A stretch of 64,000 nucleotides of DNA, taken from positions 27,776,001 through 27,840,000 of the forward strand of contig CM069155.1 in the NCBI GenBank assembly GCA_035221665.1, in the 5' to 3' direction. Within the stretch, counting starts at the first letter, position 1, and every line of letters starts with the position of its first letter. Position numbers: made by a program. This DNA is from Okamejei kenojei (taxonomy: Eukaryota). Below are positions 33,001-48,000 of this stretch, piece after piece.

Positions 33001-36000
33001 ATGTTATCGTGCTCTAACGATCACCTACATTGATGTGATTGATATGAATCAATGCTGTTAGTGCTGTATATTGATGTGGTGGCTGATAATCATGTTGATG
33101 TGATCTGGTGATACCTATCAATGATTTTAATGTTGGTTGATGTGATTGCTGGGCTTTCTGTTGATCTGGTTGCGGTAGCCAATTTGTTGGAATAAAATCC
33201 ATTCAAATGGGGTTTTGGGAATTCTGCACTGTCTTTGTATCGGCTGGTCACGGTCTCTCCCTTCATTCCTCAACTGTCAAATAAACACAGACGTGCACAT
33301 GCGCTCACAACCTATTCGAACACCGCAGTTAACAGACATTTGTAGTTTGTGAATGGAACTTTCTGTGGCAGTGGAAAGATTTTGATACTCGGTGAATAAT
33401 AAGTAGACAATAAATTTGATACCATTATTAGGTCTGTGTGTTTGTTCAGAATTTTCCATTTTTCACTTGTTCTTTCACTGCATCATGTAAGGACTGATTC
33501 AATGTCTTGTACTTCTGTTAACAAAATGAAATGCCAAATAAATTCTGAAGTGGAGATGACTTTGTCATGATATCTTGCTGTCACTTCCCGTCAACATTTA
33601 TCCAACGTTCATGAAGACAACTGTTGGAATCTCCACCCGTCTCCCTGGACTGAGCCCAGTTGATGGTTCTACACACTGCTCTCATATCGAGGCATGCATT
33701 GGGTTTACTTATGCAACCGTTGGCAGTTACTAACTAGAGTGTAAGCTCTGGGTTTGCTGGTTTTAATTGAGAATAACACAATGTTACACATTGGACCTTA
33801 ACCCAGAGATTCTGCTGCAATGGACTGTAACTGAGGGGCTTTGGGTAGATGGAGGTGGGGGATTTATGTGTAGATTAACTAAAATTCATGTGAGTTATGA
33901 GTGAGACTGTACCTCATGGAACAGACTACGGAGGGACCTGTGGATCCAGCATTGAACCATGGTAGGGCTCATCGTATTGAGGGATGGATTAAAGTTGGAA
34001 TGAGTTTTTGCATATTCCTGCGAATGGGGTGCACATTGGAATCTAATGTGAGGATTTGGATGATGAGAGGCTTCTGAGGGATAAGATATATGTGCACTGA
34101 ATATCATCCAAATCCTCACTTAAGCTCACTGGTCTATAGTTTCCTGGTTTTTCCTTGCAGACCTTCATAAATGGAAGCACAGTCCACAGTCCAGTTATCC
34201 AGCCTCTAATGATTCATATATCTCAGAGAGGGTTCCTGCAATTTTTTTTCTCTACCTTCCAATAGGTTGGATAAATCTTATCAGACCCAGAAGGTTTATC
34301 TACCTTCATACGTCTTAGCACCTTCTAGCACCGCCTTGGTGGTAATATGGACTGTCCTCTAGACATCTACATTAACTCTCTCAAGTTCTCCAGTTTTCAT
34401 GTTTTCTCCACAGTAAAAGCAAAGGCGTACTCATTGAGGACCTTGCCCATCACCTGAGGCTGCACATAGTTGACCGCTTTGGTTTGTGCGAGATCCTATT
34501 CTCTCTTTAGGTACCCTCTTTTCCTTAATCTGTACATACAATCTCTTTGGATTCTCCTTAATTTTATCTGTGAGGTTGTCACCTTTTTACCTGGTTTCTT
34601 TGGTTCTAACCTAATCCTGGTGTTGCATGGTTTTGACACAGTGAGAGGAAACGGGCATAGTATTTATCATAAAAACTTTGCGCCTCAAGGGGTGCAGATG
34701 AGTGTCTCTGAGGTACATTCGGTTAAGAGGGTCTCCTTGCCTGCTAAAACCGATTCGTGGATTCATAGGCAAATTTGGACACTGGGAGTAGTAGCGGTGT
34801 GTGGGCCACGGACTCAGCGGGCCAGGTCCCCCCACAGGCGCTGCCCGGCCCGCGGAGTCTCCAGCAGCTCGGCGCCGGCGCTCCCATTGGTTACTGGGCG
34901 CAGGGTCCCGGCCGTGATTAGTTGCTGGGCGGAGAGTCCCGGCCGTGATTGGTTGCTGGGCGCAGAGTCCCGGCCGTGATTGGTTGCTGGGCGGAGAGTC
35001 CCGGCCGTGATTGGTTGCTGGGCGGAGAGTCCCGGCCGTGATTGGTTGCTGGGCGGAGAGTCCCGGCCGTGATTAGTTGCTGGGCGGAGAGTCCGGCCGT
35101 GATTGTTTGCTGGGCGAGAGTCCCGGCCTGATTGGTTGCTGGGCGGAGAATCCCGGCCGTGATTAGTTGCTGGGCGGAGAGTCCGGCCGTGATTAGTTGC
35201 TGGGCGGAGAGTCCCGGCCGTGATTGGTTGCTGGGCGGAGAGTCCCGGCCGTGATTGGTTGCTGGGCGGAGAGTCCCGGCCGTGATTAGTTGCTGGGCGG
35301 AGAGTCCCGGCCGTGATTAGTTGCTGGGCGGAGAGTCCCGGCCGTGATTGGTTGCTGGGCGGAGAGTCCCGGCCGTGATTGGTTACTGGGCGGAGATTGC
35401 TGTACTTTGCGTCCTGATTGGGCGGAGAGAGATGTTGATGCAGGAGCGAGGTTGTTGTTTACAAGTTGCAATGGATCCCGGCGGCGGCGGCTCTCGGGGG
35501 ATCGGGGACCGCGGCGCCCACTCCCGCAGCGCCCGGGCCAACGGGGACCACGGCGGCGGCGTCGCCCTCCCGGGCCTCAAGCTGGCAGCGCTGCTCCTAC
35601 ACTTGCTGTCGGTGGTTGGAGCTGCCCCGCGACCAGGTGAAAAGCCGCGAGGGCCCGTAGAGGAGGGGGGGGGGGGGGGGGGAGGTGAGGGTGAGAGTGG
35701 GAGAGAGGAGGGGGGGGGGGATAGAGAGGGAGAGTGAGGGTGGGGAGAGAGGAGAGTGAGGAGGTGTGGGGACGAGTGGGGGGGGGAGAGGGAGAGTGAG
35801 GGGGGGGAGAGGGAGAGTGAGAGGAGTGGGGGTGGGGAGTGAAGAGGAGCGTGAGGGGGGAGAGGGAGTGGAGGAGAGTGAGGGGGGGGAGAGGAGAGGA
35901 GGAGTGGGGAGGGGTGGTGAGAGGAGAGTGAGGGGGGGGAGAGGAGAGTGAGGGGTGTGGGAGAGGAGAGGATGGTGGGGGTGGGGAGAGACGAATGAGG

Positions 36001-45000: not shown

Positions 45001-48000
45001 CACAATCAACCCACTTCACTTTGACTCCACCTTCATTGCCGTTAAAGCTGCTGCTGCTGTTGGCATCTGCTGGGCAGCGTCTCTTCCTTGTATCCTAAAT
45101 TCCAAGGGACGCCGGCTTGAACAGATCTGGTCGGCAACAGTTGGGCTGGGCTGATGCATCTCCACTGGAGCTGCTGGCAGAGCAGCAATTCCGGACTGCA
45201 GTCTCTGGGAACCTCTGCCTGTCCTCTCCACATTAGGGGGGGCCCGGCGTTGCAGCGGTAGAGTTGCTGCTTTACAGAGCCAGTGACCTGGGTTAGATCC
45301 TGACGAAGGGTGCTGTCTGTACGGAGTTTGTATGTTCTCCACGTGACTGCATGGGTTTTCTCTGGGTGCTCTGGTTTCCTCCAACAGTCCAAAGACATAC
45401 AGTGTTGTAGGCTAATTGGCTTGGTATAGTTGTAAATTGTCCTTAGTGTGTAGAGGATAACATTAGTGTGCTGGGATCCATGGTCGGTGTGGACTCGCTA
45501 GGCTGAAGAGCCTGTTTCCGGGCTGGTTCTCTAAACTAAAGTAAACAAAAAATGTCTCCAGTAGCAAACGGACAGAGATCTTGGATCACTATGTCACAGC
45601 TACTGGATGAATCCACTGCCTGCCTTCCTTTGGGCTAACTCAATTCCTATGTGAATGTAATGGCTCTACCATCACTGATGATCCCTTCAGCCTCTCTAAT
45701 CCCTGGGCTCTGGAATGCCTCCCCTTATAGCCTACCACTGACCAAGCTTTGGCTCCCGTCCCTCAAGTTCGGCTCGGAGTGAAATGTTGCCTGGACAAAG
45801 CTCTGCATTAAAGGTACTCTGTAAACGGATGTGGCTGAGAAATTAATGGGACTTTGTACCATTTTATGGCAGAGGACAAGCTATAAAGAGGGAACAGGAG
45901 CAGCGAGCACACGAACAAGAGATCCAGCGAATCATGCTGCCGTTGTCGGCCTTCACCAACCCCAGCTGTGAGCTGGAGGACGAGGTGACGGTGATGATGG
46001 TGAACCTTCAGGCACTGACCGGGGAAGACAGTGAGGCGGACAGTTCTCGTGCAACCGCCACTGGCACTCCTGGGGCTTGAGTTTAGGCGCAAACCAGTGG
46101 AAAGGATCTCTGGCTGTGGAATCTGAAGAGAGAGCGAGCTTGCTTGAATCTTTATAACATGACTCCGGACACACAACTCATCCTGACAACTGCCGCACTG
46201 TGGAGTTTCCTGGAAGGATCTGGCCATATCTGGGTGCTGATAATCAATGCATGAAGAGCGTTTAGCAGTATCCAGCAGTGAATCATGTGATGGTTCTGTT
46301 TTATATTTTAAGCTGCATTTTAAACATAACCTGGGTTTGGACACGTGAATGGTAAACGGAGTGTTGCTAGTGTTTCAAACTTTAATATAGACATTTCTAG
46401 GGGTGGGGGTTGGAATTACTGTGTGAAGTATTGTGCGCCACAAGCGGAGAGGGCAACACAACCGGGTTTAAAGATGGGAGGGCAGGGCATGCAGGGTGTC
46501 TCCGTTCAGTAGGATGGTGATAGATCAACTCGTTATCCTGTCCTTCCCCTCGTTCCCCGCAGTGCCCTGCACTCTGTCGATAAACTCTAAGCGCCCTGTG
46601 GCAACTTTGATTGAAGCTCTCCTCCCTGTCCAACAGCCTAGTTCTGTCACTCTGTCCTTGTTGTAGACAGTCCAGTGGGGGAAGAGCCCGAGCTTCCACT
46701 TGGCTGAGCTCCGCAACCACTTGCTCAATTTGTGTGACTCAACATATAACCCTTGCTCTTGGGATGAACCCTCCACATCCCAGGGATCAGTTGAGTGTTT
46801 ATCAGTGTGTCCCGGCTTTCAGCACAAGAATATCACTCCTCAGGAAAGGATACTGAAACGGAACAAAATACTCCAGCTGCAGCCTCACCAAAGCCTTAGC
46901 AATTGCACGAGCAGTATTCTCTGTCCTCTTTAAGCAAATACCTCCAGTATTGGAATCGCTGATCACCTGCTGTTAACTCTCAGGGATTTGAGATCAGGGA
47001 TTTGCCTGACCCAGGCCAATTTTTTGCTTTTCTATTTTTCACATTTCCCCCCCCCCCCCCCCTCCCACATTCAGTCAGCCCCCTCCCTATCCAATCACAA
47101 CCACACTACATTCCTCCCCACTGCATTCCCACATACAGCCCCATGGAATGCCCCACTCAGCGCCCCCATAAACCAGCCTACACTTTAACAATGCTGAGGA
47201 GCTGTGGAACTAACTGAGGAAGCTGGTCTGCTGAGGTTATACTGCAGGATTGCATGTGCCAACATTGTGAACCTACCCCAGAAACACAAAGGCAGTGGAT
47301 GGGAACTGAGCTCCTCAAATCTGCTACCTCTTACCCAGAATGATGGTGGACATTTAAACAGCCAACTCATGACGGTGGCAGGGTCTGGCACTTGATATAC
47401 AAGGTGACTGTGAAATATTCACAGCCTGGAGTGGTTGAGTACCTGATCCCCCTCTTACTCCCTTCACAAGGAATTGCTATGAGCTCAGATGCAGCATCCC
47501 TTATTGGTGCAGAGTACGTGCTACAGAACCAACCATCTCTCAACTCAATCCAGGGGTTCACTACATCTCTCCATCAGGACAATGCTCTGGGCCCACCGAC
47601 CCACTCAATATTATCCCTCCCTCTCAAATTGCTGCTTCCCCAATCTGTTTCACGTCCCACTCTCTTCGTGGTGGATATTATGGTCTGATCCGACCCTCCC
47701 ACCACAGTCTAAGGGCTCTGACCTTCACATTGCACATCGTAAACCTAGACGTGTTTCAGCAGTTTATGACGTAAATAACCATGTTGTGCTTCTCAAACTT
47801 GCACCATAAGTTGTAAGTGGCTTTATAATGAACTAAAACTTCCATAACACAATAGCATGATTAACTAATCTTTAAAATGGGGACACATTTTATGAAGTTG
47901 CTGCCAATGTTGAGGAACAAAGAGAGAATGTGTGTGGGAACACTCCCGATCCGAGACCTTTGCCAGACCCACCTCTCATACCATCTAATGATTAATCACT

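What the first reader, a model, noticed from the sequence alone, without database searches (positions are those of the whole stretch)
35471..46080. Kringle-less PIK3IP1: signal-peptide exon splices in frame directly to the stalk exon
Seen: four exons (166+195+79+208 nt) give an open 215-aa type I membrane protein with the PIK3IP1 TM and LPLSAFTNP..GTPGA tail. I found no CLNW, YCRNPD or PWCY kringle motifs between 35637 and 41368. Known: canonical PIK3IP1/TrIP has two phase-1 exons encoding an extracellular kringle domain implicated in ligand-dependent control of its PI3K inhibition. Inference: clean loss of both phase 1-1 exons yields a ligand-independent PI3K regulator with a short stalk (NET sequon, juxtamembrane KRKR) and a Gly-rich extension before the signal peptide.
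Basis: partly seen in the sequence, partly recalled or inferred. Interest (0 to 1): 0.72.

Follow-up and report, generated by a model that had tools for sequence, protein, structure and literature searches.

The report
PIK3IP1-like gene without kringle exons
A small four-exon gene here encodes a membrane protein whose membrane anchor and tail look like the PI3K inhibitor PIK3IP1, but the assembled DNA holds no trace of the extracellular kringle domain, and whether that loss is real or an assembly fault cannot be settled from this window.

Summary
The four exons (35471-35636, 41369-41563, 44463-44541, 45873-46080) are each open in the stated frame. All have AG/GT boundaries, with phases 1, 1 and 2, and they add up to 215 codons.

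No kringle is present. A motif scan of all six frames of the 64 kb found nothing kringle-like. Pfam scans of 349 stop-to-stop ORFs found 0 Kringle matches. These covered intron 1 on both strands, introns 2-3 and the 6 kb upstream. The same method did detect split C-type-lectin exons of the neighbouring gene.

Exon 1 lies in a CpG island. It is 3.6 kb after the stop of a DGCR2-like gene, so there is no room upstream for missing exons.

Two points stay unproven. The PIK3IP1 identity rests on my recall of the tail, because no vertebrate protein database was open. True genomic loss cannot be told apart from an assembly fault next to the 1.6-kb G/A tract.

In mouse T cells an engineered kringle-deleted TrIP no longer inhibits PI3K signalling (PMC6279406).

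Verdict: a likely real variant of a known gene, of moderate interest.

The parts
34800..35600 (+). CpG island holding the presumed promoter and exon 1. It includes a 31-bp minisatellite (34886-35396, 16.6 copies) whose unit carries ATTGG (an inverted CCAAT) and GGGCGG.
   Evidence: GC 0.65-0.71 and CpG observed/expected 0.8-1.0, against 0.12-0.35 just upstream. TRF period 31, 94% matches; family D3.
35471..35636 (+). Exon 1 (166 nt, ends in phase 1). It encodes a 36-residue Gly/Arg-rich N-terminal stretch and then a 17-residue hydrophobic, signal-like segment. In-frame ATGs also lie at 35432 and 35438.
   Evidence: It is the only ATG + hydrophobic + phase-1 GT candidate inside the CpG island (3 of the 11 candidates in 31830-41368 are this exon with different ATGs).
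35637..41368 (+). Intron 1 (5732 nt), with no kringle-coding sequence on either strand.
   Evidence: 0 of 102 + strand ORFs match Kringle; 0 of 72 - strand ORFs; no motif; 265 open phase 1-1 AG..GT candidates, of which 47 have two or more Cys outside the tract; none is kringle-like by eye.
35660..37260 (+). Degenerate G/A-rich tract on the coding strand, starting 24 nt after the exon 1 donor.
   Evidence: 1601 nt, 23 C, 1035 G, fading gradually at its 3' end; periods 20/23/247 at 65-69% matches; no steady higher-order lag.
41369..41563 (+). Exon 2 (195 nt, phase 1 to 1). It encodes the Pro/Gly/Ser/Glu/Val-rich stalk with the NET sequon and the juxtamembrane AKRKRD.
   Evidence: No Pfam family.
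44463..44541 (+). Exon 3 (79 nt, phase 1 to 2), the transmembrane helix.
   Evidence: Kyte-Doolittle 3.48 over AIGMIIIIIVL.
45873..46080 (+). Exon 4 (208 nt with the stop). It encodes a charged, probably helical stretch, then LPLSAFTNP, an acidic stretch and the C-terminal GTPGA.
   Evidence: No Pfam family and no PDB relative. The likeness to the PIK3IP1 tail is recalled, not tested.

Best explanation
This is a real, compact gene (10.6 kb, four coding exons). It descends from the PIK3IP1/TrIP gene and in this genome has lost the two kringle exons.

The product is a 215-residue single-pass membrane protein. Its outside part is only a stalk of about 65-70 residues, probably unstructured and N-glycosylated. 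Its membrane helix and cytoplasmic tail are kept.

**Shown**
- the exon anatomy;
- the absence of kringle-coding DNA in the assembly;
- the promoter-like CpG island;
- the tight upstream boundary.

**Inferred**
- The tail still engages PI3K p110 as in mammals.
- Without the kringle, clustering, placement near receptors and activation-induced shedding are lost or taken over by something else. The new Gly/Arg-rich N-terminus or the basic juxtamembrane KRKR are possible substitutes.
- The protein would then be either a weak or tonic regulator, or a non-inhibitory variant.
For: - Exons, frames, phases and splice sites.
- CpG island over exon 1, preceded by a CCAAT/GC-box minisatellite.
- No better first exon between 31830 and 41368.
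- The upstream gene ends at 31827 with NTVV*, so only 3.6 kb separate the two genes.
- 0 Kringle matches among 349 ORFs of 20 or more residues. The same scan found the neighbour's LDLa exon at E 1.2e-12 and both halves of its split lectin domain at E 1e-3 and 2.5e-3. A half-kringle exon should therefore have been seen.
- No N anywhere in the window.
- The G/A tract is old and degenerate (65-69% unit matches, no steady lag, gradual 3' fade). That is not the near-identical kind of repeat that collapses in assembly.
- The remaining exons carry no stop or frameshift, which fits a gene still under selection.
Against: - The PIK3IP1 identity is recalled, not tested (searches gave nothing; two searches found the tail motif in no paper).
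- Mouse data say the kringle is needed for inhibition (PMC6279406). Keeping an intact tail after losing the kringle is therefore unexpected, which raises the odds of an artefact.
- Exon 1 sits on a 275-bp island between two tandem arrays, and a purine-rich tract begins 24 nt after its donor. From my own knowledge, such sequence is hard for long-read chemistry.
- The 36-residue extension before the hydrophobic segment is unusual for a signal peptide, and no predictor was available.
- There is no expression evidence.
- The expected human neighbours (recalled) are not in the window.
Confidence: 0.5

Rival explanations
1. Assembly artefact. The organism has a normal PIK3IP1 with kringle exons, but the segment holding them was dropped or misjoined in or beside the G/A tract, or only one haplotype is shown. 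The apparent intron 1 would then be a chimera of the true introns 1 and 3.
For: - A 1601-nt tract with 1.4% C starts 24 nt after the exon 1 donor, and exon 1 is flanked on both sides by tandem arrays.
- Purine-rich tracts are known trouble for sequencing (own knowledge).
- Mouse experiments make a kringle-less but otherwise intact gene unexpected.
Against: - There is no N in the window.
- The tract is degenerate, has no sharp break in composition and fades gradually into unique sequence.
- A misjoin would need a second similar tract on the far side of the missing exons.
- The rest of intron 1 carries ordinary interspersed repeats like introns 2 and 3.
Confidence: 0.28
2. Truncated extra copy. 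A canonical kringle-bearing PIK3IP1 lies elsewhere in the genome, and this locus is a partial duplicate or diverged paralogue that never had, or early lost, the kringle exons.
For: - The neighbours are not those I recall for the human gene. Upstream lies a DGCR2-like gene and downstream only retroelement fragments for 18 kb.
- The N-terminus is remodelled.
Against: - Nothing in the window points to a duplication.
- The locus has its own CpG-island promoter and intact exons.
- Synteny in non-mammals is unknown to me, so the differing neighbours carry little weight.
Confidence: 0.12
3. Mis-modelled or dying gene. Exon 1 is a chance ORF in a GC-rich island, the true 5' end is missing, and exons 2-4 are the remnant of a gene that is no longer expressed as a membrane protein.
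For: - All three + frames are open across 35317-35734, so the ORF alone proves nothing.
- The ATG lies 36 codons before the hydrophobic segment.
- There are no transcript data.
Against: - The hydrophobic segment ends 5 codons before a consensus CAG|GTGAAA donor in the one phase that fits exon 2.
- The ATG has G at -3 and +4.
- The alternatives found lie outside the island and have poor donors.
- Exons 2-4 are intact.
Confidence: 0.07

Closest known systems
PIK3IP1 / TrIP (transmembrane inhibitor of PI3K) of mouse and human
   Same: - The order is signal-like segment, unstructured stalk, single membrane helix, then a cytoplasmic tail. PMC11615590 gives the mouse stalk as 76 residues and unstructured; here exon 2 gives 65 residues.
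- The tail motif and C-terminal end match what I recall of the mammalian protein (recall, not a tool result).
   Different: - There is no kringle domain.
- There are four coding exons, whereas the mouse gene has at least exons 1-5 plus a further one (floxed exons 2 to 5; PMC11615590).
- A 36-residue Gly/Arg-rich stretch precedes the hydrophobic segment.
Engineered delta-kringle TrIP construct (PMC6279406; also used in PMC11615590)
   Same: The architecture is the same: the stalk attached directly after the leader, with the normal membrane helix and p85-like tail.
   Different: - That construct is a laboratory deletion in the mouse protein. It failed to inhibit pS6, possibly acted as a dominant negative, and stayed on the cell surface.
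- The protein here would be a natural form, with its own stalk sequence and N-terminus. Its activity is unknown.
Short-ectodomain transmembrane adaptor proteins of lymphocytes (for example LAT or SIT; named from my own knowledge)
   Same: It would work like them in form: a tiny, partly glycosylated outside part, one helix, and a signalling tail that recruits cytoplasmic partners without a ligand-binding domain.
   Different: No sequence relation was tested or is claimed. Those adaptors act through tyrosine motifs and palmitoylation, and neither is evident here.

Membership tests
PIK3IP1 / TrIP | Extracellular kringle domain (Pfam Kringle) | tested here: not met
   0 Kringle matches among 349 ORFs of 20 or more residues. 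No CRNP or PWC motif on the + strand of the window. The sensitivity control on the neighbour's split domains passed.
PIK3IP1 / TrIP | N-terminal signal peptide giving type I topology | tested here: inconclusive
   There is a 17-residue hydrophobic segment (Kyte-Doolittle 2.45) followed by AAPRP, but it comes after a 36-residue extension. No signal-peptide predictor was on hand, and the joined protein was not built.
PIK3IP1 / TrIP | Single transmembrane helix after an unstructured stalk | tested here: met
   Exon 3 has Kyte-Doolittle 3.48 over 11 residues, a hydrophobic run of about 21 residues followed by YK and R. Exon 2 is rich in Pro/Gly/Ser/Glu/Val and matches no Pfam family. Disorder itself was not computed.
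PIK3IP1 / TrIP | Cytoplasmic p85-like (inter-SH2-like) motif and conserved C-terminal tail | not testable with these tools
   No Pfam family. The PDB search, which holds p85 chains, gave only a chance hit at E 1.2. The atlas gave unnamed clusters. The likeness of LPLSAFTNP...GTPGA to the mammalian tail is recalled.
PIK3IP1 / TrIP | Gene structure with two extra exons between the leader exon and the stalk exon | tested here: not met
   There are four coding exons here. The mouse gene has exons 2 to 5 floxed, so at least five and by my recall six (PMC11615590).
PIK3IP1 / TrIP | Binding to p110 and inhibition of PI3K/Akt signalling | not testable with these tools
   This needs experiments.
PIK3IP1 / TrIP | Conserved neighbourhood (human neighbours LIMK2 and PATZ1, from recall) | tested here: inconclusive
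   Upstream lies a DGCR2-like gene. Downstream there are 18 kb with only retroelement fragments. The window may simply be too short, and synteny in this lineage is unknown to me.

The most novel reading that the evidence does not exclude
A vertebrate lineage has truly discarded the kringle domain of PIK3IP1/TrIP while keeping the membrane helix and the conserved tail under selection. The tail would then have a function that does not need the kringle, contrary to what deletion constructs in mouse T cells suggest. In this lineage, clustering or localisation would be supplied by another part of the protein (the new Gly/Arg-rich N-terminus, the basic juxtamembrane KRKR) or by a partner protein.
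Probability: 0.35. Interest if true: 0.55.

Novelty: new variant of a known kind. Interest (0 to 1): 0.38.

Why it matters
PIK3IP1/TrIP is one of the few cell-surface brakes on PI3K. The role of its kringle domain (ligand binding, self-association or placement at the synapse) is still open in the papers I read (PMC6279406, PMC11615590).

A natural, selected form without the kringle would be a ready-made test of what the tail can do alone, and of whether shedding control matters. It would also date when the kringle became indispensable.

If instead the exons are merely missing from the assembly, the case is a useful warning. G/A-rich tracts beside first exons could produce false 'domain loss' calls in gene annotation.

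Tried and rejected
- **Naming the exons.**
  - Pfam on the four exon peptides gave no family.
  - The protein atlas on exon 4 gave only unnamed clusters plus a 22%-share SpoIIE row, which is of no use.
  - The PDB search with exon 4 gave one chance hit at E 1.2, an albumin.
- **Literature.**
  - Text searches for the tail motif found 0 papers.
  - One search for PIK3IP1 in cartilaginous fishes was badly framed and returned only fish papers. PIK3IP1 + shark gave 7 papers, none with either term in title or abstract.
  - From the listings and the passages read, I saw no paper describing a natural kringle-less PIK3IP1.
  - The founding papers were not held, and supplements were closed. A printed alignment or exon map may therefore exist that I could not see.
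- **Higher-order repeat in the G/A tract.** I looked for one as a test of contiguity. There is no steady lag, so the test says little.
- **The two 31-bp promoter minisatellites.** Their units are not significantly alike (43 of 200 shuffles reach the score).
- **Rfam.** 0 matches in the window.
- **Other first exons.** The candidates at 32954, 34698, 38090, 38617/38668 and 40495 were rejected for poor donors and for lying outside the CpG island.
- **Not done.**
  - The joined 215-residue protein was never built, searched or folded. Whole-protein predictions of signal peptide, topology and fold are therefore missing.
No orthologue comparison and no species identification were possible.
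Full report
**Scope and limits.**
- The window has no N.
- The spliced model was handled exon by exon. The joined 215-residue protein was never built, searched or folded, so whole-protein predictions are missing.
- No collection of vertebrate genomes or proteins was open. The species, the orthologues and the name of the gene therefore could not be tested by a database.

**1. The observation.**
- The boundaries are CAG|gtgaaa, cag|G...TAG|gtacag, tag|G...ACG|gtaagg and cag|A.
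- Each exon is open in its frame. With the split codons G|GG, G|GT and CG|A the total is 215 residues.
  - a Gly-rich start;
  - the hydrophobic LKLAALLLHLLSVVGAA (Kyte-Doolittle 2.45);
  - NET and AKRKRD in the stalk exon;
  - a strong membrane helix (Kyte-Doolittle 3.48);
  - LPLSAFTNP and the terminal GTPGA.

**2. Is exon 1 real?**
- Its ORF alone means little, since all three + frames are open across this GC-rich stretch.
- Four things support it:
  - The ATG has G at -3 and at +4.
  - The hydrophobic segment ends five codons before a consensus donor, in the only phase that fits exon 2.
  - It lies in a CpG island (34800-35600, GC 0.65-0.71, CpG observed/expected 0.8-1.0, against 0.12-0.35 just upstream).
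  - It follows a 31-bp minisatellite of 16.6 copies whose unit carries an inverted CCAAT and a GC box.
- I scanned 31830-41368 for ATG + hydrophobic segment + phase-1 GT and found 11 candidates. Three are this exon with different in-frame ATGs (35432, 35438, 35471). The others lie outside the island and have poor donors.
- The 36-residue extension before the hydrophobic segment remains odd, and I could not run a signal-peptide predictor.

**3. Is the kringle really absent?**
- A six-frame motif scan of all 64 kb gave 14 single hits for five kringle-type patterns. None lies in intron 1 and none is paired with a second motif. CRNP and PWC do not occur at all on the + strand. I did not scan the CLNW-type motif.
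- Pfam scans of every stop-to-stop ORF of 20 or more residues gave 0 Kringle matches in 349 ORFs:
  - 102 on the + strand of intron 1;
  - 102 on the + strand of 29432-35470;
  - 72 on the - strand of intron 1 and 73 on the + strand of introns 2 and 3.
- The best other matches were chance-level or reverse transcriptase.
- As a sensitivity control, the same tool found the neighbouring gene's LDLa exon at E 1.2e-12 and both halves of its split C-type lectin domain at E 1e-3 and 2.5e-3. Exon-sized half-domains are therefore within reach.
- I enumerated open phase 1-1 AG..GT segments of 60-300 nt in intron 1 and found 265, of which 47 have two or more Cys outside the G/A tract. None resembles a kringle half.

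**4. Boundaries.**
- Upstream on the same strand lies a gene with these parts:
  - a leader-like start at 2569;
  - an LDLa exon at 7870-8100;
  - lectin exons at 18033-18263 and 20887-21300;
  - a Cys-rich exon at 23997-24335 (no Pfam hit);
  - a membrane segment at 25393-25665;
  - a PPxY exon at 29138-29431;
  - a last ORF, 31447-31827, ending NTVV*.
- This is the order of domains and the TVV end that PMC10362570 gives for DGCR2 (one passage).
- Only 3.6 kb, including that gene's 3' UTR, separate its stop from the ATG at 35471. Missing 5' exons cannot hide upstream.
- Downstream of 46080 I saw only retroelement fragments for 18 kb.

**5. The G/A tract.**
- The stretch 35660-37260 is 1601 nt with 23 C and 65% G, on the coding strand, starting 24 nt after the donor.
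- It is degenerate (TRF units 65-69% matching) and has no steady higher-order lag.
- It fades gradually into unique sequence at its 3' end.
- That is not the profile of a young, near-identical array that collapses in assembly, and there is no gap.
- Even so, purine-rich tracts are hard to sequence (own knowledge), and exon 1 sits between two arrays. A dropped segment cannot be excluded from the assembly alone.

**6. What it is and how it likely works.**
- The most likely reading (0.5) is a real PIK3IP1-derived gene that has lost both kringle exons.
- It would make a single-pass protein with only a short glycosylated stalk outside the cell.
- That the tail still binds p110 is inference from the family.

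**7. What the literature says about such a form.**
- PMC6279406 (passages):
  - Both the kringle and the p85-like domain are needed for inhibition.
  - Kringle-deleted TrIP did not lower pS6, may act as a dominant negative, and was not lost from the surface.
  - A CD8 chimera inhibited only when cross-linked.
  - TrIP self-associates.
- PMC11615590 (passages):
  - The stalk is 76 residues long and unstructured.
  - ADAM cleavage maps to residues 120-133.
  - The mouse knockout removes exons 2 to 5.
A weak, tonic or non-inhibitory variant, or one clustered by other means, is more in line with it.

**8. Rivals.**
- Assembly or haplotype artefact: 0.28.
- A truncated extra copy beside a canonical gene elsewhere: 0.12.
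- A mis-modelled or dying gene: 0.07.
- Each is separable by reads, a genome-wide search and transcripts (see the next steps).

**9. Novelty and score.**
- In the listings and in the passages read, I saw no natural kringle-less PIK3IP1. The founding papers and all supplements were out of reach.
- If real, this is a new variant of a known kind. It is of moderate interest to a small field and bears on an open question about the kringle's role.
- Because the name is recalled and the loss is unproven, I score interest 0.38.

Noticed in passing
window 2569-31827 (+): A DGCR2-like gene. It has a leader-like start at 2569, an LDLa exon at 7870-8100 (Pfam E 1.2e-12) and a split C-type lectin domain at 18033-18263 and 20887-21300. 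It also has a Cys-rich exon at 23997-24335 (no Pfam hit at E<=0.1), a membrane segment at 25393-25665, a PPxY-rich exon at 29138-29431, and a last ORF ending NTVV* at 31827. It lies head-to-tail with the PIK3IP1-like gene, 3.6 kb away.
   Followed up: partly
window 602-2425 and 34886-35396: Both genes are preceded by a GC-rich minisatellite of the same 31-bp period (57.7 and 16.6 copies). The second unit carries an inverted CCAAT and a GC box. The two units are not significantly alike (43 of 200 shuffles reach the alignment score).
   Followed up: yes
window 35660-37260 (+): A G-rich purine tract lies on the non-template strand just inside intron 1. It holds 11 of the 19 canonical G-quadruplex motifs on the window's + strand, so it is a candidate R-loop or G4 element downstream of the promoter.
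   Followed up: partly
window 40502-40567, 43373-43438, 45335-45400; also 39741-39826 and 44106-44191: Copies of two interspersed repeat families (77-82% alike) occupy introns 1, 2 and 3. An inverted pair lies at 42008-42150 / 45347-45489. The family was not identified, and Rfam gave no match.
   Followed up: no
window 49963-50589 (+), 23237-23557 (+), 12884-13432 (-): These are reverse-transcriptase fragments of retroelements. Pfam RVT_1 scores E 8.2e-11 for 49963-50358, which also contains an internal duplication of about 45 residues. The other two were judged by eye only.
   Followed up: partly
The N-terminal extension could therefore be 13 residues longer, depending on where transcription starts.
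   Followed up: no
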